From the IMG/VR virus record IMGVR_UViG_3300048854_000273, positions 43,413 through 107,412 of that record: DNA of 64,000 nt; one strand, 5' to 3'. Made by a program: the position numbers and the translations under genes. The notes beneath the pieces are model-generated. The model was not told the origin of the DNA. It saw nothing but the letters and a program-made list of their open reading frames with translations, and searched no databases. Source of the stretch: a virus. Its lineage: Duplodnaviria; Heunggongvirae; Uroviricota; Caudoviricetes. The first letter of the stretch is position 1. Every line of letters begins with the position of its first letter. Below are positions 3,238 through 63,202 of this stretch, in pieces.

Positions 3238-3588
3238 TCAGAACTCCAGTTTGAGTGCGGACTCGCCGAGTCCGAGTTCGCCGAAATACTCTTTCAGCGC
3301 GGCTTCGGTGCGGTCGCCCGAGAAGCGGCCCTTGGGCAGCCCGCCGTCGAGGGTGATGACTGTCGGAACCGCGCGCACGCCAAAGAGACCGGCCAGTTCC
3401 GGCTGATCACCGGCATCGACCACGGCGAGCGTGAAGCCCCACTCGTCGGCGAGTTTCGCGAGCTTGGGCTTGAGCTGCCTGCACGGGCCGCACCACGAGG
3501 CCGTGAAAACCACGACCACGGGCTCCTGCTGCGACTTTTCAGTGACGAAGTGGTCGAACGTTTCCTTCGTCGGGTTAATGACCGGCAT
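3238..3588 (-). CDS. trx: thioredoxin
   Basis: WCGPC active-site motif (ASWCGPCRQLKP) and thioredoxin fold spacing; start taken at MPVINPTKE. Confidence 0.85.
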   Translation of the reverse strand: MPVINPTKETFDHFVTEKSQQEPVVVVFTASWCGPCRQLKPKLAKLADEWGFTLAVVDAGDQPELAGLFGVRAVPTVITLDGGLPKGRFSGDRTEAALKEYFGELGLGESALKLEF

Positions 3589-4237
3589 CTTTGTATCCTT
3601 CGGGGGTGTAGGCGACCTCGATCTTTTCGCGGTAGCGCTTCTCGATGTAGACGGAAGGCGCCAAGTCCGCGCGCAGGTCGAGGTGAGTGGTAGCGACAAG
3701 CAGCGTCGCGCCGGCGGTGCGGGCGACCTTCTGCATGTTGAAAGCAATGACGCGGGCAGTGTCCCGGTCGACCACGGCGAGAAACTCGTCGGCAACCCAG
3801 ACCTTGGCGTTCGCTTCGATCAGCTTGGCGAGACGGAACCGGTAGCGCTGCCCGTCCGACAGCTCGGCGGGCTTGCGAATGAACAGGTAGGCGTCGTTCA
3901 GGCCCGCGATCGACAGGTATTTCAGCGCGTCGTTGGTGTCGGTGCCGATCTGGTTGATGAGCGGGCAGTCCTGGAACTGGATCTCATCGATATCGCACAC
4001 GGCGTCGCCGGCGGCCTTCATCTGCGCCTTCAGCTCTCGCAGGACTGTGGACTTTCCCGAGCCGGACTGGCCGGTCACGTAGACCACATCTCCCTGCTCG
4101 ATATCGATTGCCTGGTTGTCGAAAACGACGAATTCCTTGTCGTCCAGACCCAGCCCGAACGCTTCGGCGATCTCCAGCACGCGGTCGGTGCGCTCAACCG
4201 TCGCCGTGAAGCGCTTGTTCACCATGTATTGAGTCAT
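3575..4237 (-). CDS. ABC-transporter-type ATP-binding domain protein (stand-alone NBD)
   Basis: Walker A GQSGSGKST, ABC signature LSDGQRYRFRLA, Walker B VWVADEF, H-loop TTHLD; start taken at MTQYMVNKRF. Confidence 0.65.
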   Translation of the reverse strand: MTQYMVNKRFTATVERTDRVLEIAEAFGLGLDDKEFVVFDNQAIDIEQGDVVYVTGQSGSGKSTVLRELKAQMKAAGDAVCDIDEIQFQDCPLINQIGTDTNDALKYLSIAGLNDAYLFIRKPAELSDGQRYRFRLAKLIEANAKVWVADEFLAVVDRDTARVIAFNMQKVARTAGATLLVATTHLDLRADLAPSVYIEKRYREKIEVAYTPEGYKDAGH

Positions 4238-4557
4238 GCCGCAGCCTGCCTGTTGATCGACACCCACCAGACCATCGCATTGGGGTTGTCCTGCCATAGC
4301 AAACAGAGGCCGCGGGCGCCGAACAGCGTGAAGTCCTCTTCGTCGTTCTCGTCGCCCAGATCGAAGTAGTAGTGGATCGCGTGCATGGCCTCGTGCAGGA
4401 ACGTGTCCGCGAGATTCTGTGCGGTCTGGTCCGGCGCCACACGAATCTTGTGGTTCATCGGGTTCATGTGGCCGAACGAGCGCGAGGCGGTTGAGTCGCC
4501 GGCGTCCTCGATCTCCACCGCAAAGCGGAAGTGGCCGATCTTCAGCGATTTGGGCAT
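4234..4557 (-). CDS. HExxH zinc-metallopeptidase-like small protein
   Basis: FLHEAMHAIHYY motif; start taken at MPKSLKIGHF; the upstream part of the ORF-track frame is low-complexity. Confidence 0.45.
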   Translation of the reverse strand: MPKSLKIGHFRFAVEIEDAGDSTASRSFGHMNPMNHKIRVAPDQTAQNLADTFLHEAMHAIHYYFDLGDENDEEDFTLFGARGLCLLWQDNPNAMVWWVSINRQAAA

Positions 4558-5600: not shown

Positions 5601-5987
5601 TCAGACGATCACCCAGTCTTCAGCCAGCATGTCGGTCTGAGTTGGCACCCACGGGACTAACTTGTCGTCGGTTGTCTTGATGCAGACCCAGGGCAGCTCC
5701 GGCAGCTCGCCACCCTTACTGCTCGTCAGCAAGCAGCCCTGTGGGTCAAAAATTTCGAGCCACATGCCCTTGCCGTTCCATCCCGCGCGCGCGACTCGCT
5801 GGTCTAGCTTCACCGCGTCAATCGCTAGTCCAAACGTGAGACCATCAGCGGCGCGATAGGCTTTGTGGAACGTGTCAGCAGGTGACCAGCTCATGTAGCC
5901 GTCCTCGTATTGAACGGTGTAACCGTCGACGCCCTCACGGGCCTGCGGCTGTGCCTGGACGATCTTTGTGCCGATATAGCGCTTCAT
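5601..5987 (-). CDS. DUF2829-like protein
   Basis: ARAGWNGKGMWLEI matches the conserved GWNGKGM core of the phage-associated DUF2829 family (from memory). Confidence 0.5.
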   Translation of the reverse strand: MKRYIGTKIVQAQPQAREGVDGYTVQYEDGYMSWSPADTFHKAYRAADGLTFGLAIDAVKLDQRVARAGWNGKGMWLEIFDPQGCLLTSSKGGELPELPWVCIKTTDDKLVPWVPTQTDMLAEDWVIV

Positions 5988-10153: not shown

Positions 10154-10658
10154 TGAGGGCAGCATGATCGAAGAATGGCGGGATGTGGTGGGCGCAGCGG
10201 GTCTTTACGAGGTGTCGAACCTTGGGCGAGTGCGGAAGGACGGCGGTCGCGTCATGGCGACTCAGCGGGTCTCCAAAGACGACGCTCATCGACGGGCGCG
10301 CCTGACCATTGCCGATAAGCGCGTGAAGCGACTGGTTCACGTTCTTGTTCTGGAAGCGTTTGTCGGGCCGCGGCCGCTCGGAATGGAAAGTTGTCATGAC
10401 GACGACGACCCCGAAAACAACGCTCTCTCGAACCTGCGATGGGACACCTCGCTCGGGAACAAGCAGGACGCTCAGCGGAACGGTCGCACGGCTCGGGGTG
10501 AGCGCATTGCACAATCAACCCTCACAGAGGCTCAGGTGCGAAAGATCAAGTCGGCGGCCGGCAAGAGCGAGCGTGAACTGGCTCGTGAATTCGGCGTCAC
10601 GCGCGGGGCAATTCAGGGCGTGAAGCGCGGCACCACGTGGGCGTGGCTGGAAGTATAA
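10154..10658 (+). CDS. HNH homing endonuclease (NUMOD4 + HNH + C-terminal HTH)
   Basis: YEVSNLGRVR (NUMOD4), CHDDDDPENNALSNLRWDT (HNH), ...LAREFGVTRGAIQ (HTH); GAGGG RBS. Confidence 0.75.
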
Positions 10659-11800: not shown

Positions 11801-11814
11801 CGTGTCAGACAGTC
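11801..11814 (+). promoter_or_regulatory. motif AGTCAGTTTTTACT
   Basis: 30 nt upstream of 11024..11770 start; preceded by half-parS. Confidence 0.55.
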
Positions 11815-15392: not shown

Positions 15393-15415
15393 AAAAAGGC
15401 GCCATTTCTGGCGCC
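15393..15415 (-). terminator. rho-independent terminator GGCGCCA-tttc-TGGCGCC plus U5 (minus strand) after mazF
   Basis: perfect 7-bp stem; A5 on the plus strand precedes the stem. Confidence 0.6.
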
Positions 15416-15422
15416 CTTCGAA

Positions 15423-15761
15423 TCACAGATCGAGGATCATTTTCACCGCAAATTTAGCGGCATCAAGTTCTTCCTCTGTAGCCCGCTCCCCGTTGAACTT
15501 GAACTCCCTCGCCTTGAAGGAAAGCGTGGTTATCTGGTCGACAAGGGCAACGCCTGGACGTGCGAGACTGGACAGCGGAATCTCCGTCTCCCACCCGCGC
15601 ACCGTGGAGGTGATTGGCAGCCCAATGATCCGGCCGGTCAGTTCGTTTATGTCCTGCGGACTGAGCACTACAACGGCTCGATACCCGTCCTGTTCGTTAC
15701 CCTTGCTCGGCCCGATGTAGAGCCGAATAATGTCGCCAGCTTCCGGTATTCCGTTTTGCAT
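15423..15761 (-). CDS. mazF: MazF/PemK-family endoribonuclease toxin
   Basis: GDIIRLYIGPSKGNEQDGYRAVVVLSP...GVALVDQITTLSFKAR aligns with E. coli MazF (DLIWVDFDPTKGSEQAGHRPAVVLSP...GVALADQVKSIAWRAR). Confidence 0.8.
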   Translation of the reverse strand: MQNGIPEAGDIIRLYIGPSKGNEQDGYRAVVVLSPQDINELTGRIIGLPITSTVRGWETEIPLSSLARPGVALVDQITTLSFKAREFKFNGERATEEELDAAKFAVKMILDL

Positions 15762-15767
15762 TCGTAT

Positions 15768-16055
15768 TTACCATTTGTCGAATCGCGTTGGATCGTCGGA
15801 ACCCCCGAGTTCCGAACCCTGCGGCTCGCCAAAGTCGATCGTCTCATGCGGCACAAGCTGGCGATCACGGAGCTGCTGCAAATACCGCTCGCGTGAGAAC
15901 CTCCTAATTGCCTTGTGCGGACGGATCAATACCTTCCCGTCCTGCACTTCGACGTCTACCTCCTGACCCTCCGAGAACGCCACCTCACCGGCGACGCTCG
16001 CGGGAATCCGAACCGCAAGGCTATTACCCCAACGCTTCAGGGTTTGAATAGCCAT
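15768..16055 (-). CDS. mazE: MazE-type antitoxin (AbrB/SpoVT fold)
   Basis: MAIQTLKRWGNSLAVRIPASVA vs E. coli MazE VKRWGNSPAVRIPATLM; C-terminus DFGEPQ...RFDKW vs DWGEPKDKEVW. Confidence 0.75.
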   Translation of the reverse strand: MAIQTLKRWGNSLAVRIPASVAGEVAFSEGQEVDVEVQDGKVLIRPHKAIRRFSRERYLQQLRDRQLVPHETIDFGEPQGSELGGSDDPTRFDKW

Positions 16056-16166
16056 CAAACTCTCTCCATCAGTGACGCGACCGGGAGGAGCCCGGTTCCC
16101 CTTCGTCTTCGATCCCTCAGCACACACGTAAGGAAGCTACGTGTCATTTTTTTATGTTTATACATC

Positions 16167-16222
16167 GTTGATACAAGACCGATCATATACTTCGTTCGCA
16201 GGCGTGTCAACGTTGTATCAAC
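16167..16222 (-). promoter_or_regulatory. AT-rich mazEF promoter/operator region with inverted repeat GTTGATACAA ... TTGTATCAAC
   Basis: 10-bp arms at 16167-16176 and 16213-16222, upstream of mazE. Confidence 0.45.
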
Positions 16223-16281
16223 ATTGCCCAGGCGCCACCCTTCCCCTAGGCTACCACTGTATATCCATACAGCCCTAAGCC

Positions 16282-16557
16282 ATGCCCCTACCCAACTACT
16301 CCACCCCAACCATCAACGAGTTGCGGGCCTTGTGGCGCCTCCACGACGACCACGACATTCGTCGGCTCATTCTCGAAATCCAGCACCTGCGCGAGGTCCA
16401 GGAGGAAATCGAGTATCTGCGCTCTGTAACCGAGCGCGCGTGGAAGGCTGAGAACCTCGGCACGCTGGTCGCGCTTGAAAAGCTCCGCGTGCTGATGCAG
16501 TCGGAGCGTTCGAGACTGGGCATCCTGTCCGGGTTGCCGCCGACGCCGAAAGAATGA
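16282..16557 (+). CDS. hypothetical coiled-coil protein (91 aa)
   Basis: high GC3, non-repetitive sequence. Confidence 0.4.
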   Translation: MPLPNYSTPTINELRALWRLHDDHDIRRLILEIQHLREVQEEIEYLRSVTERAWKAENLGTLVALEKLRVLMQSERSRLGILSGLPPTPKE

Positions 16558-16558
16558 G

Positions 16559-16828
16559 CTACCACGTGCCGGCGTCCGGGTATCCAGCCGGCAACTCGAT
16601 CCTCTGCCTGGCGGTCGTGTAGAGCGCGTCAGCGACAGTCGAGCGGATTGCCGCGGATTCGCCATCCAGCTCCGCACAGACAAACCGCCGGGTTGCATAC
16701 AGGGACAGCTCCCTGCCTTCGCTGTCGAGCCATGCATTGAAGCGGTCGATCATTTCGTCGGTGATCCCGTCGAACTCGTCCATCACCAGCTCCCCAGGTC
16801 CGGGTAGCGCGGCGGGCGGGGCGGGCAC
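16559..16828 (-). CDS. hypothetical protein, C-terminus ...YPDAGTW
   Basis: ORF; C-terminal tail paralogous to the next gene. Confidence 0.4.
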   Translation of the reverse strand: MPAPPAALPGPGELVMDEFDGITDEMIDRFNAWLDSEGRELSLYATRRFVCAELDGESAAIRSTVADALYTTARQRIELPAGYPDAGTW

Positions 16829-17001
16829 AGCGACGACATGAGGCTGTAGGCCACGTTGTCGATCATCACGTAGCTCTCGCCTTCCATCTGCCTGCGCACA
16901 TAGTCGCGGGCCGCATCCATCACGTTTGCCCGTAGGTGGCGCCGGCGATGCTGCTCATAGCCATCGATCATGCTTTCGGCGATTTCCTCCCATTCAGTCA
17001 T
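16783..17001 (-). CDS. hypothetical protein, C-terminus ...YPDLGSW
   Basis: ORF. Confidence 0.45.
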   Translation of the reverse strand: MTEWEEIAESMIDGYEQHRRRHLRANVMDAARDYVRRQMEGESYVMIDNVAYSLMSSLCPPRPPRYPDLGSW

Positions 17002-55098: not shown

Positions 55099-58000
55099 TC
55101 AGTTAAGACAATCAGCCACCTTTTCAAATACGGCTGCCAGGATCTCGGCCTTCGATGTGTCGAACAGGATCTGCTGCGCGTTAATGCCGCACACGATGCT
55201 CGCGTCCAACGTCTTGTCGAAGATCACCTTGCCGGCGAGTTCGGCCGTGCCGCCCTTGATGCCCGGCACGAAGTGCTTGATCGACGCCGAGCCAAGCGCC
55301 ACGATCACCGCGGGCTTGATCAGCTCCAGCTCGCGCTGAAGGAAGCCCTTGCAGCCGTTGATCTGGGCGTTCGAGAGGAACTTGTCGCTCTTTTTCGCCT
55401 TGACCAGCGACGTGTAATAGCCCTCTGCCGGATTGAGTCCCGCCTGCTTGATCGCTTCCTTGATGAAGTCGGCCGCATCCCCTTCAAGCATCTTGTCGGC
55501 CTTCTCCTCCTGCCAGCTCGGACAGTCGGACACGACCATGAACTTAACCGTGTGCTTGGCTCGCACAGTCGGGTGTGGCTGACCCGCCAGATCGCAGCCC
55601 TCGCAGTTCTTGTATTCCTGCACGAGGCTGATCACCTTTGCACGCAGGAACGTTTCTTTCAGGTCTGTCGTGCGATCGGCCTTCACGCTGTCGATGATGA
55701 GGCCGCCCATCAGTTCGGTCTGTTCACGGCGTCGGTCCGGGTGTCGCGCAGGTTTTGCCCCTGGTTGCAGCGGCACGAGGGCGCCGACTTTATCCAGCCC
55801 ATCGCGGACCTTGCTGTTGACCTTCGAGCCCTTTGCTTCCGTGATGTTCAGGAACTCATCCATGTCCTTGAACGTGCCGCCGTTCTGGCGCCGCAGCTCC
55901 ACAATGCGCAGTGCCGTGTTCTCGGAGATACCCTTCACGGCCGAGAACGGCGCGAGCAGGTGGTTGTCGTCGGGAATCGTGAAGCGCTCGCGCGACAGGT
56001 TGATATCGGGCGGCAGCACTTCGATGCCGAACTCACGCGCTTCCTCAACGAGACTCGGCAGCTTTTCTTCCTTCACGATCGACATGCAGGCGGCGAAGTA
56101 TTCCGCCGGGTAGCGCACGCGCACCCACATCGTCCAGTAGGAGATGAGCGAATACTCCACCGCGTGCGAGCGGTTGAAACCGTAGCCTGCAAAGGCTTCG
56201 ATCTTGTCGAACAGCTTGCCGGCGGGGATTTCGTCCATGCCCGACTTGGCGAGACAGCCGTCGACCCACTTCTGTCGCATTTCGGCCATCTTGTCCTTGT
56301 CCTTCTTGCCCATCGCTTTGCGCAGGTGATCCGCTTCAGCGCGCGTAAAGCCCGCCAGATCGACCGCCACCTGCATGACCTGTTCCTGATAGACGATGAC
56401 GCCGTAGGTGTCCTTTAGCGCCGCCTCCATGTTCGGATGATCGTAGTAGACAGACTTGGCACCTTGCTTGATCTGGATGAAGTCGTCCATCAGCCCCGAG
56501 TCCATTGGACCTGGCCGGTAAAGCGCGGTCGCGGCGGTTACGTCCTCGAACGTGAGCAGCCCACCCATCGCGAGATTGCGCAGCAGTGCCTTCATGCCGC
56601 CCGAGTCGAACTGGAACACGCCGGTTGTGTCACCCTTGCCGAACGCAGCCATAATGTCTGGCTCCTCCAGCGGCAAGTCCAGGTAGTCGATTTTCTTGCC
56701 GTGCCGCTCCCCGATGTAGGTCTTGGCAATCTCCAGCACGTCGAGCGTGGAGAGCCCCAGAATATCCATCTTGACCAGGCCCCAGTCCTCGACGACGCGC
56801 TTGTCCCAGTTCACGACCGGCGACTCGCCGCGCGTTTCAACGACTGCCCGGTTGATCAGCGGCTCGCCTGCGACAACCACACCGGCTGCGTGCTGCCCGA
56901 ACGAACGCATGGCCCCTTCGAGCTTGAGCGCATGGCCCCAGACCTCCGGGTGGGTGTCACGGAACTTCTCCAGGTCAGCAACCGCCTTCGCCGCTTCGGT
57001 GAGCGTGAAGGAGTTGCCGTGCTCTTTCGGCACGAGCTTGGTCGCGGCCAGGTCCAGGTTCGACAGACCCCACACGCGCCCCGTGTCGCGCAGCGCCGAT
57101 GCAGAGGCGAGCGTCGAGAAATTGGAGATGCCGGCGACGCGGTCGGCGCCGTATTTGCCGGTCAGATATTCAATCACCAGATGGCGCTTGCTCGACATGA
57201 AGTCCAGGTCAGCATCGGGCAAATCCAGACGCTCGGGATTGATGAAGCGCTCGAACAGGAGGTTGAAGCGGATCGGATCCACGTCCGTGATGCCGAGCAG
57301 ATACGCAACGAGCGAGCCGCCGACCGAACCGCGGCCTGGCCCGACGATAATGTCGTTCGCCTTCGCCCACATGACAAGGTCTTCGACCAGCAGGAAGTAG
57401 CCGGCGAAGCCCATTTTCTTGAGCACGCCCAACTCATACTGGAGCCGCGTCTTGTATTCAGGCATGAGCGACACGGGCGGCAGATAGCCGAGCACCGGAT
57501 ACGTGAAGCGCCGCTTCCAGCCCTCAATGCACTTCCTGCCAAGCGTGACGAACTCGTTCTCGGCCATTGCGGGCAGCGAGACCGGGTGTTTCTTGAACTC
57601 GTAGCCGCACTTCGCCGCGAGCTTCTCGACGTTGGTCAAGCCAGCCAGCCACAGATGTGGCTCATGCACGCCGTAGAACCGCTTCACGCGTGTGGCGGCC
57701 GCCTTCAGCCGCTCGATGACGTGCTTGGGCTCGGCGAAACCAAAGTCGCGCACGTGCTGGATGGGTCGATACGAGACGTCCATCTTCGTGTTCGACGTCA
57801 CTGCGCCCAGCACGTCCAGGCTGTCCGCGTCGGTGTTCTCGCGATAGAGCGTCGGATAGTTGACGATCGTCTGGACTTCGTGGACGCGCGCGGCCTTCAG
57901 CGCTTCGGCGTTCAGAGTGTCGAATAGCGGCGTGTTGATCGGGACGAGCTCCACCAAAAAGTCGTCCCTGAACGTCATGTTCAGCCGTAGCGCGATATCG

Positions 58001-58464
58001 AACGCTTCCGGGTGGTGGAACAGGTTGAAGAAGTCGCCCGTTGTCACCACGACGCCTTCGAGCTTCAACACGTCCTCGAGCCCGACGCGCGACACGTAGT
58101 AGAAGTAGTCCGGCGAGTTCGCTTTCGACAGCAGCTTGATCAGTCCGGCGACACCGCGCTCGTCCTTCGCATACACCTTCAGGGTGTAGCCGCGGTTCGG
58201 CTTTTCCTTCTCGCCCGACGCCTTCGGCGGCTTGCGGTAGGTGGGATCGTCGACCACGCGCACCGCACATCCGATGATCGGCTTGATGCCGGCTTTCTTC
58301 GCGCGCTGCGAGAAATCGACCATCGCGTGCAGGCTCATTTCATCGACGAGGGCGACGGACTCGTAGCCCAGCTCCTTCGCCTTGCTGACGATATGGTCGA
58401 CCTGCAAGAGTGACTTGCCGATCGAAAAGTCGGAGCGCACCGCGAGGGCATGTCCGAGATTCAT
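55099..58464 (-). CDS. dnaE: DNA polymerase III alpha subunit (DnaE-type, PHP + Pol-beta-like palm)
   Basis: 1121 aa; N-terminal PHP domain; conserved DnaE blocks (GPGRGS, LLFERF, YRPGPM). Confidence 0.9.
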   Translation of the reverse strand: MNLGHALAVRSDFSIGKSLLQVDHIVSKAKELGYESVALVDEMSLHAMVDFSQRAKKAGIKPIIGCAVRVVDDPTYRKPPKASGEKEKPNRGYTLKVYAKDERGVAGLIKLLSKANSPDYFYYVSRVGLEDVLKLEGVVVTTGDFFNLFHHPEAFDIALRLNMTFRDDFLVELVPINTPLFDTLNAEALKAARVHEVQTIVNYPTLYRENTDADSLDVLGAVTSNTKMDVSYRPIQHVRDFGFAEPKHVIERLKAAATRVKRFYGVHEPHLWLAGLTNVEKLAAKCGYEFKKHPVSLPAMAENEFVTLGRKCIEGWKRRFTYPVLGYLPPVSLMPEYKTRLQYELGVLKKMGFAGYFLLVEDLVMWAKANDIIVGPGRGSVGGSLVAYLLGITDVDPIRFNLLFERFINPERLDLPDADLDFMSSKRHLVIEYLTGKYGADRVAGISNFSTLASASALRDTGRVWGLSNLDLAATKLVPKEHGNSFTLTEAAKAVADLEKFRDTHPEVWGHALKLEGAMRSFGQHAAGVVVAGEPLINRAVVETRGESPVVNWDKRVVEDWGLVKMDILGLSTLDVLEIAKTYIGERHGKKIDYLDLPLEEPDIMAAFGKGDTTGVFQFDSGGMKALLRNLAMGGLLTFEDVTAATALYRPGPMDSGLMDDFIQIKQGAKSVYYDHPNMEAALKDTYGVIVYQEQVMQVAVDLAGFTRAEADHLRKAMGKKDKDKMAEMRQKWVDGCLAKSGMDEIPAGKLFDKIEAFAGYGFNRSHAVEYSLISYWTMWVRVRYPAEYFAACMSIVKEEKLPSLVEEAREFGIEVLPPDINLSRERFTIPDDNHLLAPFSAVKGISENTALRIVELRRQNGGTFKDMDEFLNITEAKGSKVNSKVRDGLDKVGALVPLQPGAKPARHPDRRREQTELMGGLIIDSVKADRTTDLKETFLRAKVISLVQEYKNCEGCDLAGQPHPTVRAKHTVKFMVVSDCPSWQEEKADKMLEGDAADFIKEAIKQAGLNPAEGYYTSLVKAKKSDKFLSNAQINGCKGFLQRELELIKPAVIVALGSASIKHFVPGIKGGTAELAGKVIFDKTLDASIVCGINAQQILFDTSKAEILAAVFEKVADCLN

Positions 58465-59227: not shown

Positions 59228-59875
59228 TCAAAGAGTGTCGATAATGCGGCGCACTTCCTGGGCCGCTGCTGCCATGTCGCGCGTGCCGACGTCCTTCTTC
59301 ACCAGGCGAATGAACTTGCAGATGAAGCCGATGTTGACGCCGGCGGCGCACCGCGTGCGAATGCCGATGCTGCGGCTGTAATCGCAGTGCGCCTGGTTCT
59401 TCCTGATCTCCTCCAGCAGCGCGGCCGGTGGGCTCACGATCCACTCTACGATCAGCGCCGCGAGCGGGCTCATGCCCTGCACCGCCTTCTCGATCTGGAG
59501 CGCGCACTGTTGCCGGTCCAGAATTTCCTCCGGCGTCATCGCATCGCTCGGGACGGTTTCTAGAAGGTTGGAGCTTTCGTCGTCGCCCATGCCCTCGATG
59601 CTGAACACGCCGTTCTCGCGCTCCTCCTCACTGCTCTCAGCCTTGCGGTTGATGCGGTTGTAGGCTGCGGTGCCGAAATATGTGGTGAAGGCGAAGCCCT
59701 TGCTCGGGTCAAACTTCGCGTGCGCCAGCAGGAAGGCTTCACGAACGTCGGCGAACACGTCGTCGTATTGGGTGGAAGCCTCCAGGTCCAGGAGACGCCC
59801 ATAGCACTTGCGTGCTATCTGGTGGACGAATCCCAGATTCCCCTGGTAGCACTCGACAATGTCGGCGCTATACAT
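59228..59875 (-). CDS. RNA polymerase sigma-70-family factor (regions 2 and 4; ECF-like size)
   Basis: region 2: YQGNLGFVHQIARKCYG...FDPSKGFAFTTYFGTAAYNRINR; C-terminal HTH-like region; 215 aa. Confidence 0.65.
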   Translation of the reverse strand: MYSADIVECYQGNLGFVHQIARKCYGRLLDLEASTQYDDVFADVREAFLLAHAKFDPSKGFAFTTYFGTAAYNRINRKAESSEEERENGVFSIEGMGDDESSNLLETVPSDAMTPEEILDRQQCALQIEKAVQGMSPLAALIVEWIVSPPAALLEEIRKNQAHCDYSRSIGIRTRCAAGVNIGFICKFIRLVKKDVGTRDMAAAAQEVRRIIDTL

Positions 59876-61189: not shown

Positions 61190-63202
61190 TCAGCCAATCA
61201 GCAGCGAGCGCAACTCCTTCATCACGCGTGAGGGCAGCTCCGACACGTTGTTAATGATCATGTGGCGCTTGTAGAACTGTTTAACGGCCTCAGACTGGAT
61301 GCCAATGCCGACGACGCGCACCCCTGCCTTCTCGATGTTCACCACCGTGTCCTTCAGGTGCTGGAATACCGCCGCACCGCCGCCATCACAGGCGGGTGCG
61401 CCATCGGACAGGACGATCATGATCTTGCCCGCCTCGCGACGCTGCATGAGGCGTCGGGCGGCAATCTCGATGCACTCGCCATCGACGTTATTGCGCAACG
61501 TGTTGCAGTTCGGCAGCCAGCCAAAGCGATTGCGCACTTCGGTGGACTGCATGCGCTCGTTGAAGGATTTCAGGATCGGCATGTAGAGGCTTTCCGTTCG
61601 GCTGAACCGCTTGCCAAGACGCTTCTCCTCCTTCTCCATCTTTTCTTCATCCACGATGTTGCCAGTGGTGAAGCAGATGGTCTCGGACTTGATGTTCAGG
61701 CGATCGAGGACCGAGGCGAGCGCATATCCCGCCTGCGCCGCCGTGTGGATCTTGCTACCCCACATCGAGCCCGACATGTCGATCACCAGCTCCACCGCAA
61801 CATCCTTGCTGGTTGACTCATGCTTTTTTCGGAACACACGCGCGTCGCCTACTGCCAGCCGTGACAGGTTGCCACTGTGCAGACGTCCGGAGCGGCGGCC
61901 GTTCTCCCAGACAGAGAGCGAACGCGCACTGATGGCACGCTCCAGATCCTTCTGGAGTGGCGCGACCATGTGGTCGACCTCGTCACTGAGCTTCTTGGTC
62001 ATTTCTGGCTTGAAGCCGGAACCCAAGTGCAGCGGCTCGATGACGTCGTTGTCCTTCGTGTAGACCAGGTATTGCGCCCCTTTCGCCGCCTCGATCGCGT
62101 CGTTGGTGATCAGACGTGACATGGTTTCGTCAAAGCCGTTGGCGGTTTCCTTGTCGAGAGCGGCGAGAAAACCCGACGAATCACCGGTGTTGACGTCCTC
62201 GTCATCCTCCCCCGACGGCTCATCGTCGTCGGATTCCGACTCAGCATCGTCCTCACCGTCCTCACCTTCTTCATCTTCCTCGCCGGATTTGGCTTCTTCA
62301 CCTTCCCCGCCGGCCCCGCCGCTTTCCTCGCCCTCGCCCTCGCCCTCGCCCTCGCCCTCGCCTTCTTCGGAGCCTGAGCCGGACTTGCCACCCGGCAGAC
62401 CTGCGCCGGATTCCTCCTCGCTCTCCTCGTCGCTTTCTTCCTCCGACTCCGGCTTTGGCCCGCTCTTTCCCATCGACGGCTTGCCGGAGCTTGCCTTCGA
62501 CCGGGATTTGGCTTTCTTAGGCTTCGGAGGCGCGGCACCGCCGCCAGCCCCACCGCTCGTCGCACGACCGAGCGCGGTCATCACTTCCTGTGCGAGCGTC
62601 ACGGCGTCGCCTGTGGTCGGGCAGTTTGCAATCTTGGACGCGAGGTGCTCGATCTTGTCGACCTCGTCGGCGATCGCTTCCTGCATGTCCGGGTGATCAG
62701 TGAGCCACTGCTTGAAAATGTGCTGTCCGGCCATCGCTCGCAGCGCCGGCACCATCACCAATGCCTTGACGCCGTTCACGTCGCCCTTCTTGGCAGCTTC
62801 GCGAATCTGCGGCTTGACGTATTTGTCTAGGAAGAACTGGCCCGTCACGGCAATGTTGTGACCCGAACCCTGGAAGCGCTTGGCCATCTCCCGCTCGATA
62901 CGGGTGTCCTCGATGATGTTGACCATGTTGTGCAGGCTCGGGTCGCGAATCGCGTTCATCGCCTTGAAGTCGGTGAACAGGATATGTGCGACCTCATGGT
63001 CGAGAAAGCCCTGAATTGCCGCGCATAGCTCATCGCTGGCGTTATCCGGCAGATACGGCAGATTGACGTGCGCGGGTTCACCGTTGGCCCCAGGCTGGAC
63101 GTATGCGCTGATGCCGCGCTGCGTGACCGTGATGCCCTTGCCCGCCAGCATCTGCGTAATCGTGACTACCGCCTCACGCAGAACAAATACTCGTTCGTTC
63201 AT
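61190..63202 (-). CDS. CobT-like von Willebrand factor A domain protein with internal acidic (EGEGEG) region
   Basis: C-terminal VWA MIDAS VIDMSGSMWGS; central poly-acidic block; paired with the upstream AAA+ gene. Confidence 0.65.
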   Translation of the reverse strand: MNERVFVLREAVVTITQMLAGKGITVTQRGISAYVQPGANGEPAHVNLPYLPDNASDELCAAIQGFLDHEVAHILFTDFKAMNAIRDPSLHNMVNIIEDTRIEREMAKRFQGSGHNIAVTGQFFLDKYVKPQIREAAKKGDVNGVKALVMVPALRAMAGQHIFKQWLTDHPDMQEAIADEVDKIEHLASKIANCPTTGDAVTLAQEVMTALGRATSGGAGGGAAPPKPKKAKSRSKASSGKPSMGKSGPKPESEEESDEESEEESGAGLPGGKSGSGSEEGEGEGEGEGEGEESGGAGGEGEEAKSGEEDEEGEDGEDDAESESDDDEPSGEDDEDVNTGDSSGFLAALDKETANGFDETMSRLITNDAIEAAKGAQYLVYTKDNDVIEPLHLGSGFKPEMTKKLSDEVDHMVAPLQKDLERAISARSLSVWENGRRSGRLHSGNLSRLAVGDARVFRKKHESTSKDVAVELVIDMSGSMWGSKIHTAAQAGYALASVLDRLNIKSETICFTTGNIVDEEKMEKEEKRLGKRFSRTESLYMPILKSFNERMQSTEVRNRFGWLPNCNTLRNNVDGECIEIAARRLMQRREAGKIMIVLSDGAPACDGGGAAVFQHLKDTVVNIEKAGVRVVGIGIQSEAVKQFYKRHMIINNVSELPSRVMKELRSLLIG

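What the first reader, a model, noticed from the sequence alone, without database searches (positions are those of the whole stretch)
15393..16260. Complete mazEF toxin-antitoxin module, with its own AT-rich operator region and terminator, inside the phage-like element
15768..16055 encodes a MazE-like antitoxin (VKRWGNS..AVRIPA, DFGEP..W tail). 15423..15761 encodes a MazF-like endoribonuclease that aligns along its length with E. coli MazF. Upstream is an AT-rich promoter with inverted repeats GTTGATACAA/TTGTATCAAC. Downstream is a clean intrinsic terminator (15393-15415). No copy of the genome-wide motif lies nearby, so the module looks like an independently regulated moron. It could stabilise the element or act in inter-phage or host competition.
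Basis: partly seen in the sequence, partly recalled or inferred. Interest (0 to 1): 0.5.

Follow-up and report, generated by a model that had tools for sequence, protein, structure and literature searches.

The report
Host-derived mazEF cassette in temperate phage
A complete, self-regulated MazE-MazF toxin-antitoxin gene pair, apparently exchanged with the chromosomes of Burkholderia-family bacteria, sits as an 833-bp add-on in the accessory region of a large temperate phage related to phage-plasmids; it is a well-formed but ordinary example of a known kind of phage 'moron'.

Summary
The minus strand carries mazE (15768-16055) and mazF (15423-15761). Both score well above the Pfam cut-offs, both match solved E. 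coli MazE/MazF structures, and the catalytic Arg and Thr of MazF are intact. Upstream lies a sigma70-type promoter (11 of 12 matches), bracketed by GTATCAAC-type inverted half-sites. Downstream lies a strong intrinsic terminator.

The promoter and operator core is invariant across phage, chromosomal and plasmid copies. A close relative of the phage lacks the module, and there one copy of the 7-nt repeat AGGCGCC replaces the 833-bp cassette. The nearest proteins (88-92% identical) are chromosomal MazF proteins of Paraburkholderia and Burkholderia.

The surrounding element is not a vague 'phage-like element'. It belongs to a clade of temperate phages of about 110 kb, collinear with the Acinetobacter 'AB' phage-plasmids. 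Its relatives carry either Rep plus ParA or integrase plus excisionase next to cobT. Several relatives carry different mazEF alleles. Between two phages the genes show dN/dS of 0.05-0.09.

The most likely role is a lysogen-expressed addiction and/or abortive-infection module, but that role is inferred, not shown. Verdict: new member of a known kind, low to moderate interest.

The parts
15393..15418 (-). Intrinsic terminator of the mazEF operon: GGGCGCCA-GAAA-TGGCGCC followed by TTTTTGTT.
   Evidence: Fold of -21.3 kcal/mol, z = -4.4, 0 of 200 shuffles as stable. The same terminator type follows mazF in phage L002 and plasmid L001; chromosomal copies L003/L004 use a different hairpin.
15423..15761 (-). 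mazF, a PemK/MazF-family endoribonuclease toxin of 112 aa.
   Evidence: Pfam PF02452 E 2.3e-15. PDB E. coli MazF E 5e-17. R28 and T51 are invariant. 88-92% identical to Paraburkholderia/Burkholderia MazF. dN/dS 0.048 against the copy in phage L002.
15768..16055 (-). mazE, an AbrB/MazE/SpoVT-fold antitoxin and autorepressor of 95 aa. The start is ATG 16055, preceded by GGAGAGAG.
   Evidence: Pfam PF04014 E 2.1e-12. PDB E. coli MazE E 1e-10, including the C-terminal IDFGEP tail. All homologues start M[A/T]IQTLKRWGNS, and similarity is lost upstream of the ATG. dN/dS 0.093 against L002.
16056..16175 (-). 5' leader of about 120 nt, inferred. It contains a hairpin at 16124-16144. Its length and sequence are not conserved between copies.
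   Evidence: Distance from the -10 hexamer to the start codon. The hairpin was picked up by the scan. The leader is the variable part of alignment A1. No Rfam family matches.
16182..16210 (-). Sigma70-type promoter TTGACA-17 nt-TATGAT.
   Evidence: 11 of 12 matches. The -35 hexamer is invariant and the -10 nearly invariant in all five aligned copies.
16166..16174 (-). Operator half-site GTATCAACG, just downstream of the -10 hexamer, around the predicted +1.
   Evidence: Invariant in five copies. One of only two GTATCAAC sites in the window. The same half-site lies upstream of the distant alleles in L013 and L026.
16204..16222 (-). Operator half-sites GTTGATAC (16215-16222) and CGTTGACAC (16204-16212); the latter overlaps the -35 hexamer. 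Together with 16166-16174 they form the inverted repeats that bracket the promoter.
   Evidence: Inverted repeats I1 and I7. CGTTGACAC is invariant in five copies; the outer site varies in orientation between copies.
15397..15403 (.). Left copy of the 7-nt direct repeat AGGCGCC that bounds the 833-bp indel.
   Evidence: Junction alignments against the mazEF-less relative L009, which has a single copy.
16230..16236 (.). Right copy of the direct repeat AGGCGCC. Homology to bacterial DNA stops at 16229, and homology to the phage backbone resumes at about 16256.

Best explanation
This is a functional type II MazE-MazF toxin-antitoxin cassette that is shared and exchanged with Burkholderiaceae host chromosomes. 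It is carried as a self-contained moron of about 833 bp in the accessory early region of a temperate phage of roughly 110 kb (size inferred from related contigs), in a clade related to phage-plasmids.

Mechanism, inferred from family knowledge: a host sigma70 promoter transcribes mazE-mazF whether or not the phage's own programme is running. MazE, alone or bound to MazF, binds the GTATCAAC-type half-sites over the -35 hexamer and the +1 position and represses its own operon. The terminator shields the downstream phage genes from this transcription. When MazE supply stops, the labile antitoxin decays and MazF cleaves single-stranded RNA using the conserved Arg/Thr pair, which arrests growth. 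Supply could stop through loss of the prophage or plasmid, or through a transcription shut-off imposed by a superinfecting phage.

Most likely benefit to the element: retention of the prophage or episome (post-segregational killing), and/or abortive-infection-type protection of the lysogen.

What is shown: identity, intact catalytic residues, regulatory architecture, foreign origin and purifying selection. What is inferred: toxicity, neutralisation, autoregulation and biological role.

My estimates: about 0.9 that it is a working MazEF module. For the main role, about 0.35 for addiction and about 0.2 for lysogen defence.
For: Family membership and catalytic residues. The Arg/Thr pair is required for activity in other MazFs (PMC10893535).

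Architecture: canonical antitoxin-first operon with a 6-nt gap. Promoter flanked by inverted half-sites. The promoter/operator core is invariant in copies whose coding DNA is about 79-85% identical. The half-site is unique to this spot in the window and recurs upstream of alleles only 33-41% identical. Strong terminator.

Purifying selection between two phage copies: dN/dS 0.048 (MazF) and 0.093 (MazE), at dS about 0.8-1.0.

Cassette nature: clean indel against L009, homology to bacterial DNA over 15421-16229, and GC3 0.66 against about 0.8 in the backbone.

Temperate or episomal context:
- DnaE is 58-59% identical to that of the ~105-115 kb Acinetobacter plasmids, and gene order matches one of them. 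These are the AB phage-plasmids of PMC7969092.
- Relatives carry Rep3 + ParA + CI (L085), TrfA + ParA + CI (L090, which has mazEF), or integrase + Xis + CI (L084, L091).
- B1VFA-type relatives are described as possible prophage-plasmids (PMC12509600).

Recurrence: mazEF-like pairs occur in 3 of 11 well-covered IMG/VR relatives, plus L002.
Against: No experiment supports toxicity, neutralisation or autoregulation.

The window ends about 0.8 kb upstream of cobT, so the lysogeny or maintenance module of this particular phage was not seen. No rep, parA or integrase was found among the 30 ORFs of at least 172 aa tested.

Presence of mazEF does not track the episomal module. It occurs with Rep/ParA in one relative and with integrase in another, and it is absent from one of each.

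Likely hosts carry chromosomal MazEF that is 88-92% identical. That copy could cross-neutralise the phage toxin and blunt post-segregational killing.

The closest relative lacks the module, so it is dispensable. PADLOC has no model that matches it.
Confidence: 0.55

Rival explanations
1. Anti-defence by antitoxin supply. The host's own chromosomal MazEF aborts infection when the phage shuts off host transcription. The phage copy keeps MazE levels up and so neutralises the near-identical host MazF. On this reading the phage MazF is carried along, or serves to stabilise and regulate MazE.
For: Phage MazE and MazF are 90% and 92% identical to chromosomal copies (L003/L004) and 88% to named Paraburkholderia proteins. 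Phage alleles are interspersed among host alleles: L002 is closer to a Paraburkholderia protein (94.6%) than to the window, and L011 lies in another subclade. This looks as if phage copies track host alleles. Cross-neutralisation between related non-cognate MazEFs has been demonstrated in other systems (PMC10893535). Phages that inactivate host MazF are known (phi3T AimX/YosL, abstract of PMC10769878).
Against: MazF is under purifying selection at least as strong as MazE (dN/dS 0.048). An antitoxin-only function does not predict that, since the toxin would be expected to decay. The promoter is an autorepressed host-type promoter, not a phage early promoter or motif. Interspersion with host alleles can also arise from simple opportunity for gene transfer.
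Confidence: 0.15
2. Selfish passenger. The cassette spreads and persists in the phage's hypervariable region through its own addictive properties and short-homology recombination, with no net benefit to the phage.
For: There is a presence/absence polymorphism among close relatives, bounded by a 7-nt repeat. Different alleles lie at slightly different junctions; in L011 the cassette abuts the homologue of the window's 72-aa gene at 16783-17001 and lacks the 91-aa gene. Alleles are interspersed with bacterial ones. The cassette is absent from the closest relative.
Against: In phage L002 the cassette has diverged about as much as the collinear backbone (about 79-83% against 66-83% nt) while dN/dS stays low. 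That fits long retention, although a selfish TA would also stay intact. Recurrent presence of distinct alleles in one phage clade suggests a repeated advantage.
Confidence: 0.2
3. Lytic-cycle weapon. MazF is released during infection to degrade host mRNA, while phage transcripts escape because they lack the cleavage motif.
For: MazF is an mRNA endoribonuclease by family. The cassette sits among early or accessory genes.
Against: ACA, the E. coli MazF site, is not depleted on the sense strand of 16 backbone genes: observed/expected 0.93, and UACA and ACAU are not depleted either. The true specificity is unknown, so this test is weak. Expression comes from an autorepressed sigma70 promoter with the antitoxin translated first, which is a poor design for timed toxin release.
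Confidence: 0.05
4. Decayed or non-functional remnant.
For: None was found. The only supporting point is that a close relative does without it.
Against: Both genes are full length, with intact catalytic and toxin-binding residues. The promoter and operator are invariant. dN/dS is below 0.1.
Confidence: 0.03

Closest known systems
Chromosomal MazEF of Burkholderiaceae (e.g. Paraburkholderia/Burkholderia WP-type 'PemK/MazF family toxin'; metagenomic chromosomal loci L003/L004 between dnaB and phoU-pitA)
   Same: MazF is 88-92% and MazE about 90% identical, with the same lengths (112 and 95 aa). The promoter/operator core CGTTGACACGCCTGC...TATAAGAT...GTATCAACG is identical. DNA homology covers window 15421-16229.
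   Different: The window's copy is on a phage, not a chromosome. Its terminator resembles the plasmid copy L001 rather than the chromosomal ones. Its 5' leader differs in sequence and is longer.
E. coli MazE-MazF (ChpAI/ChpAK; PDB 1UB4, 5CK9)
   Same: Same folds and operon order. The catalytic Arg/Thr pair, residue E24 and the MazE C-terminal IDxGEP toxin-binding motif are conserved. The alignment covers nearly the full length.
   Different: Only about 36% (MazF) and about 35-40% (MazE) identical. NCBIfam equivalog scores are below the cut-offs (82.8 against 120; 47 against 113). MazE has a 13-residue longer C-terminus. Cleavage specificity is unknown.
Kis-Kid (ParD of plasmid R1) and PemI-PemK (R100): MazF-family TA pairs that stabilise low-copy plasmids
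   Same: Same toxin superfamily (Kid 1m1f_A, E 3.8e-5). An analogous proposed role in retaining a low-copy extrachromosomal element.
   Different: Distant in sequence. Here the episomal state of the carrier is shown only for relatives, not for this phage.
Phd-Doc of phage-plasmid P1
   Same: An autoregulated type II TA carried by a temperate phage that lysogenises as a plasmid, where it acts as an addiction module (my own knowledge; listed among persistent P1 genes in PMC7969092).
   Different: An unrelated toxin family (a Fic kinase rather than a PemK RNase). P1's role is shown experimentally; this one's is not.
MazF-like genes annotated in phages (PHROG 1936 'MazF-like growth inhibitor'; Lactobacillus prophage Lj771, Paenibacillus phages, Pantoea phage G19)
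   Same: Matches PHROG 1936 at E 3e-14, a family filed under moron/host takeover. This shows that MazF on phages is a known phenomenon.
   Different: Only 7 of 50,697 phage records match this MazF at E <= 1e-5, all at 41% identity or less, and none is in a DnaE-carrying phage of about 110 kb.

Membership tests
PemK/MazF toxin family (Pfam PF02452) | Profile HMM score above the gathering threshold over the full domain | tested here: met
   57.1 bits against 23.1, residues 8-107 of 112. PDB MazF chains at E 5e-17.
PemK/MazF toxin family (Pfam PF02452) | Catalytic Arg and Thr (E. coli R29/T52; B. subtilis R25/T48) | tested here: met
   Window R28 and T51 fall in invariant columns of alignment A5. 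The requirement for these residues comes from PMC10893535.
PemK/MazF toxin family (Pfam PF02452) | Sequence-specific endoribonuclease activity that arrests growth | not testable with these tools
   Needs expression and cleavage assays.
MazE / AbrB-SpoVT antitoxin family (Pfam PF04014) | N-terminal swapped-hairpin DNA-binding domain, by HMM | tested here: met
   47.2 bits against 24.7, residues 7-49.
MazE / AbrB-SpoVT antitoxin family (Pfam PF04014) | C-terminal extended toxin-binding tail | tested here: met
   Aligns with E. coli MazE through residue 82, including HExIDxGEP. Binding itself was not tested.
Type II toxin-antitoxin operon | Antitoxin gene first, tightly linked toxin gene, and a promoter overlapped by palindromic operator sites | tested here: met
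   6-nt gap between the genes. Promoter at 16210-16182 between inverted half-sites. The core is invariant in five copies. Autoregulation itself is inferred.
E. coli MazF / MazE equivalogs (NCBIfam NF007386, NF007312) | Score above the curated equivalog cut-off | tested here: not met
   82.8 against 120 for MazF and 47 against 113 for MazE. The pair is a family member, not an orthologue with the same specificity.
Phage moron | Own promoter and terminator, present in some and absent from other closely related phages, with atypical composition | tested here: met
   Promoter and terminator. Empty site in L009, with about 116 nt in place of about 950 nt. GC3 0.66 against about 0.8 in the backbone. 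No phage motif within 1.3 kb.
Phage-plasmid (carrier element) | Phage structural and replication genes together with plasmid replication initiator and partition genes in one replicon | tested here: inconclusive
   The window shows only the replication and nucleotide-metabolism half and a ParB_N protein. It is collinear with an AB-group phage-plasmid. Relatives have Rep3+ParA or TrfA+ParA, but others have integrase+Xis. The module of this phage lies beyond the window.
Catalogued anti-phage defence systems (PADLOC-DB v2) | Match to a defence-system protein model | tested here: not met
   No hit for MazE, MazF or six neighbouring small proteins. This bears on cataloguing, not on possible abortive-infection activity.

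The most novel reading that the evidence does not exclude
The phage-borne mazEF is not simply an addiction module. It may be one side of an allele-matching contest with the host's chromosomal mazEF. On this reading, phages of this clade repeatedly replace their cassette with the local host allele, by recombination at the conserved operator and terminator or at short repeats. Phage MazE then neutralises host MazF-mediated abortive infection. Conversely, host MazE acts as an anti-addiction factor against the phage toxin.
Probability: 0.12. Interest if true: 0.6.

Novelty: new member of a known kind. Interest (0 to 1): 0.3.

Why it matters
TA modules on temperate phages and phage-plasmids are well known, so this case adds an example rather than a concept.

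Its value is as an unusually clean specimen. The cassette limits are defined to the base pair, and an empty site is available for comparison. The native promoter, operator and terminator travelled with the genes. Near-identical host chromosomal copies exist, and several independent alleles occur in one phage clade.

That combination gives a convenient system for one open practical question: whether chromosomal and phage-borne copies of the same TA cross-neutralise, and which side benefits. The possible outcomes are anti-addiction, anti-abortive-infection or lysogen defence.

The work also extends the 'AB'-type phage-plasmid supergroup to Burkholderiaceae-associated phages, and shows integrase and Rep/Par modules occupying the same position in different members.

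Tried and rejected
1. ACA (E. coli MazF site) avoidance. On the sense strand of 16 backbone genes the observed/expected ratio is 0.93, and UACA and ACAU are not depleted. This gives no support for a host-shutoff weapon. The test is weak because the specificity is unknown.

2. GTAC amelioration test. The phage clade has no GTAC at all, but the bacterial mazEF copies also lack GTAC, so the direction and age of transfer could not be inferred this way.

3. LexA-box reading of CTGTATATCCATACAG (16257-16272). The pattern CTGT-N8-ACAG occurs 3 times against 0.83 expected, and 6 of 100 shuffles do as well. L009 has CTGG at this spot. The palindrome belongs to the phage backbone upstream of the 91-aa gene, not to the cassette. 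It was not pursued.

4. The 91-aa divergent gene as a third component of the module. Rejected, because it is present in L009 and L012 without mazEF. It has no Pfam, PHROG or PADLOC match.

5. Walking off the right end of the window to see this phage's own lysogeny module. CobT is not on record. The only contig found through CobS begins inside cobT. Relatives had to be used instead.

6. Correlation of mazEF with the episomal lifestyle. With mazEF: one TrfA/ParA relative and one integrase relative. Without mazEF: one Rep3/ParA relative and one integrase relative. There is no signal with these four contigs.

7. Rfam scan of the cassette and its leader: nothing meaningful.

8. PADLOC: no match.

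9. Monophyly of phage alleles. They are not monophyletic in a neighbour-joining tree of 112-aa proteins. Resolution is low, so 'several exchanges' is likely but not proven for the window and L002 pair.
Full report

Yes. Six nt separate them.

MazF matches Pfam PemK_toxin (E 2.3e-15, 57 bits against a cut-off of 23). MazE matches MazE_antitoxin (E 2.1e-12, 47 bits against 24.7). Against solved structures, MazF aligns over residues 4-107 with E. coli MazF (1UB4, 5CK9; E 5e-17). MazE aligns over residues 4-82 with E. coli MazE (1MVF, 1UB4; E 1e-10), including the C-terminal HExIDxGEP stretch that contacts the toxin.

I aligned eight sequences: three further phage alleles, a chromosomal copy, E. 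coli MazF and B. subtilis MazF. Twelve columns are invariant, and they include window R28 and T51. These are the equivalents of E. coli R29/T52 and B. subtilis R25/T48. The same pair was shown to be required for cleavage in another MazF (PMC10893535).

The NCBIfam equivalog models for E. coli MazF and MazE are matched only below their cut-offs (82.8 against 120; 47 against 113). The pair is therefore a member of the family, not an orthologue of the E. coli system. Its cleavage specificity cannot be assumed.

**2. Regulatory anatomy**

A sigma70-type promoter, TTGACA-17-TATGAT (11 of 12 matches), lies on the minus strand at 16210-16182. One such hit in 2 kb is no more than chance expectation, so the evidence that counts is comparative.

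I aligned the upstream regions of five copies: the window, phage L002, two chromosomal loci (L003/L004) and a Paraburkholderia plasmid (L001). The coding DNA of these copies is only about 79-85% identical. Even so, the stretch CGTTGACACGCCTGC...CGAAG.TATA(A/T)GAT...GTATCAACG is invariant, while the leader downstream and the sequence upstream are not.

The most conserved pair is CGTTGACAC, which overlaps the -35 hexamer, and GTATCAACG, which lies just after the -10 hexamer around the predicted +1.

GTATCAAC occurs only twice in the 64-kb window, and both copies are here. The same half-sites lie upstream of mazE in phage alleles only 33-41% identical. L013 has an inverted pair 22 nt apart, and L026 has a tight palindrome. 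This is what operator sites read by the conserved AbrB-type N-terminus of MazE would look like.

The promoter core has GC 0.395 against 0.594 for the window.

Downstream of mazF, the minus strand reads GGGCGCCA-GAAA-TGGCGCC-TTTTTGTT. It folds at -21.3 kcal/mol (z = -4.4), and none of 200 shuffles is as stable. The consensus scanner missed it, probably because extending the stem with A-U and G-U pairs uses up the T-run.

The leader of about 120 nt contains a hairpin and matches no Rfam family.

**3. It is a cassette**

Homology to the bacterial chromosomal loci runs from window 15421 to 16229. That is from the mazF stop codon to just beyond the operator.

A close relative of the phage, L009 (helicase 89% identical), aligns with the window on both sides but has about 116 nt where the window has about 950 nt. 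In the junction alignments the 7-nt sequence AGGCGCC occurs at 15397-15403 and 16230-16236 in the window and once in L009. This defines an 833-bp indel.

The direction of the event is ambiguous. L009 retains the A-run and the first GGCGCC of the terminator, so a deletion between the repeats is as likely as an insertion by microhomology.

Third-position GC is 0.655-0.667 in mazF and mazE against 0.69-0.84 (mostly about 0.8) in 16 backbone genes.

The genome-wide motif (minus-strand AGTCAAAACTGA) has 17 exact copies and 6 variant copies, all in one orientation and in short gaps between minus-strand genes. None lies between 14041 and 19420. All criteria for a moron are met.

**4. Where the module comes from**

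The closest proteins are chromosomal MazFs of Paraburkholderia and Burkholderia (88%) and of two metagenomic loci (92%). In those two loci mazEF lies between rpsF-ssb-rpsR-rplI-dnaB and phoU-pitA.

Only seven of 50,697 phage records match this MazF at all, and none above 41% identity.

In a neighbour-joining tree the phage alleles are interspersed with bacterial ones. L002's allele is nearer to a Paraburkholderia protein (94.6%) than to the window's allele (92%). L011's allele sits in a different subclade. With 112 residues the resolution is limited. Even so, more than one exchange between phage and host is the simplest reading, and the hosts are very probably Burkholderiaceae.

**5. What carries it**

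The window is the replication and nucleotide-metabolism half of a large phage. It encodes a DnaE-type polymerase fused to a UDG domain, RNR alpha and beta, SbcCD, a RecA/UvsX-like protein, a gp32-like protein, FEN, ThyX, CobS/CobT-like proteins, a DEAD-box helicase and a ParB_N protein.

There is no DNA-level match in the phage collection. By protein, DnaE is 45% identical to isolated phages of about 110-120 kb: Rhizobium B1VFA and RHEph10, Stenotrophomonas BUCTxx99 and Pseudomonas nickie. It is 58-59% identical to the ~105-115 kb Acinetobacter baumannii plasmids. Gene order matches one of those plasmids: CobT, MoxR, two genes, DnaE..., FEN..., SbcD, SbcC..., RNRa, RNRb. These plasmids are the 'AB' phage-plasmid group of Pfeifer and Rocha, who list RHEph10 and nickie as distant relatives (PMC7969092). 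B1VFA has been described as a possible prophage-plasmid (PMC12509600).

The maintenance module lies just beyond the window's right end, so I examined relatives:
- L085 (113-kb contig; CobT 80% identical): Rep3 initiator, ParA/MipZ ATPase and a Cro/CI regulator upstream of cobT.
- L090 (111-kb contig that carries a mazEF allele): TrfA-family initiator, ParA, an H-NS-like protein and CI.
- L084 (the L009 contig; aligns with the window up to 63993 at 80%): a 450-aa tyrosine integrase, an excisionase-like HTH_17 protein and CI.
- L091 (108-kb contig from an isolate genome, with a 41% mazEF allele): integrase, Xis and CI.

The clade is therefore temperate. Episomal and integrative modules occupy the same position in different members. 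Which type this phage has is unknown.

**6. Is the module maintained in phages?**

L005 is the same phage, from sequencing run SRR35924699 (100% identity over 20 kb).

L002 is a collinear relative at about 66-83% nt identity, with mazEF in the same slot. Between the two phage copies dN/dS is 0.048 for mazF and 0.093 for mazE, at dS about 0.8-1.0. Both genes are therefore constrained, and the toxin is constrained at least as strongly as the antitoxin.

Eleven IMG/VR relatives have helicase at least 65% identical and the full 10 kb downstream. Three of them carry Pfam-verified or tblastn-detected MazEF pairs at 69%, 41% and 34% MazF identity. In L011 the cassette abuts a different backbone gene from the one in the window, which again suggests separate events.

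**7. How it most likely works**

Shown: family, catalytic residues, operon order, conserved promoter and operator, terminator, cassette limits, foreign composition, purifying selection, and the temperate nature of the clade.

Inferred from established knowledge of type II MazEF, Kis-Kid and PemIK systems: MazE, or the MazE-MazF complex, represses the promoter through the half-sites. MazE is labile. When its synthesis stops, MazF cleaves RNA and arrests growth.

A host-type autoregulated promoter, an insulating terminator and the absence of the phage's own motif together fit expression in the lysogen rather than in the lytic programme. The window also encodes a protein with a sigma70 region-2 hit (59228-59875, 27.8 bits against a cut-off of 24). 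That protein may read the genome-wide motif, which would separate the two regulatory circuits further. This last point is speculative.

I rank the roles as follows:
- Addiction, meaning retention of the episome or prophage: about 0.35.
- Selfish passenger: about 0.2.
- Lysogen defence by abortive infection: about 0.2.
- MazE supplied to counter the host's near-identical MazF: about 0.15.
- Lytic host shut-off: about 0.05.
- Non-functional: about 0.03.

Against a pure addiction role: likely hosts carry a chromosomal copy 88-92% identical that could cross-neutralise the phage toxin, and mazEF does not track the episomal module in the four informative contigs. Against a pure antitoxin-supply role: the toxin is under strong constraint.

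**8. Comparison with what is known, and verdict**

TA modules on temperate phages and phage-plasmids are textbook (P1 phd-doc). MazF-family modules stabilise plasmids (R1 Kis-Kid, R100 PemIK). MazF-like phage genes already have a PHROG family filed under morons, which this protein matches (PHROG 1936).

What is particular here is the quality of the specimen and the near-identity to host chromosomal copies, not the kind of system. I therefore class it as a new member of a known kind, with interest 0.3.

The most novel reading still open is an allele-matching contest between phage and host mazEF copies. I give it about 0.12.

Noticed in passing
window, + strand starts 754, 6692, 11004, 12391, 13443, 14029, 31411, 32892, 35846, 35946, 41026, 43348, 48585, 51963, 53950, 55081, 63277; variant copies at 11813, 19420, 26432, 39660, 43956, 61155: The genome-wide motif is minus-strand AGTCAAAACTGA, partly palindromic (AGTCA-AAAC-TGACT). 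It has 17 exact copies plus 6 AGTAAAAACTGA variants, all in one orientation, in short gaps between minus-strand genes. It is probably a phage-specific promoter or regulator site.
   Followed up: partly
window 59228-59875 (-): This 215-aa protein has a Sigma70_r2 hit (E 2.1e-6, 27.8 bits against a cut-off of 24). It may be a phage-encoded sigma factor that reads the genome-wide motif.
   Followed up: no
whole window; also L002, L009-L013 and L026: The tetranucleotide GTAC is completely absent: 0 against about 99 expected in 64 kb, and 0 in seven related phage loci of about 20 kb each. Bacterial loci have about 2 per kb. Several 6-bp palindromes are also nearly absent (AAGCTT 0 of 13.9, AGATCT 1 of 17.9, CAGCTG 1 of 13.5, GGATCC 1 of 13.8). 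This indicates strong restriction-site avoidance across the clade.
   Followed up: partly
window 16257-16272: A LexA-box-like palindrome, CTGTATATCCATACAG, lies 9 nt upstream of the 91-aa gene. It is identical in L002 but reads CTGG in L009. The pattern CTGT-N8-ACAG occurs 3 times in the window against 0.83 expected. It belongs to the phage backbone, not the cassette.
   Followed up: partly
window 16282-16557 (+): A 91-aa gene lies divergent from mazE, on the opposite strand to its neighbours. It is conserved but fast-evolving: 37% identical in L002, 78% in L009 and 47% in L012. It is present without mazEF in L009 and L012, and has no Pfam, PHROG or PADLOC match.
   Followed up: partly
L085 4470-7708; L090 2042-6532; L084 5291-7684; L091 1-2383 (all upstream of cobT, just beyond the window's right end): The lysogeny or maintenance module differs among close relatives at one position: Rep3+ParA+CI, TrfA+ParA+H-NS-like+CI, or tyrosine integrase+excisionase-like+CI. 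Episomal and integrative modules thus occupy the same slot in one phage clade.
   Followed up: partly
window 55099-58464 (-): A DnaE-type polymerase III alpha subunit of 1121 aa carries a C-terminal uracil-DNA glycosylase-superfamily domain at residues 972-1070 (E 3.6e-8).
   Followed up: no
window about 5601-5987 (-) (L005 19775-20161): A 128-aa gene carries a precomputed Pfam Tad2-like hit (PF11195). From my own knowledge this family includes an anti-Thoeris protein. It lies next to the ParB_N gene and the helicase.
   Followed up: no
window about 10164-10658 (+) (L005 15104-15598): An HNH_3/NUMOD4 homing-endonuclease-like gene lies on the opposite strand within the accessory region. No equivalent gene is called at the corresponding position in L002.
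   Followed up: no
window 62326-62355: A tandem hexamer CCTCGC, repeated at least 5 times, lies inside the CobT-like ORF. On the coding strand it probably encodes an acidic Glu/Gly-rich repeat.
   Followed up: no
window 3575-4297 (-): A 240-aa P-loop ATPase gives weak PADLOC hits to mad3 and mad8 (E 5e-13 and 1e-8) and a Pfam ABC_tran hit. Only the P-loop region matches.
   Followed up: no
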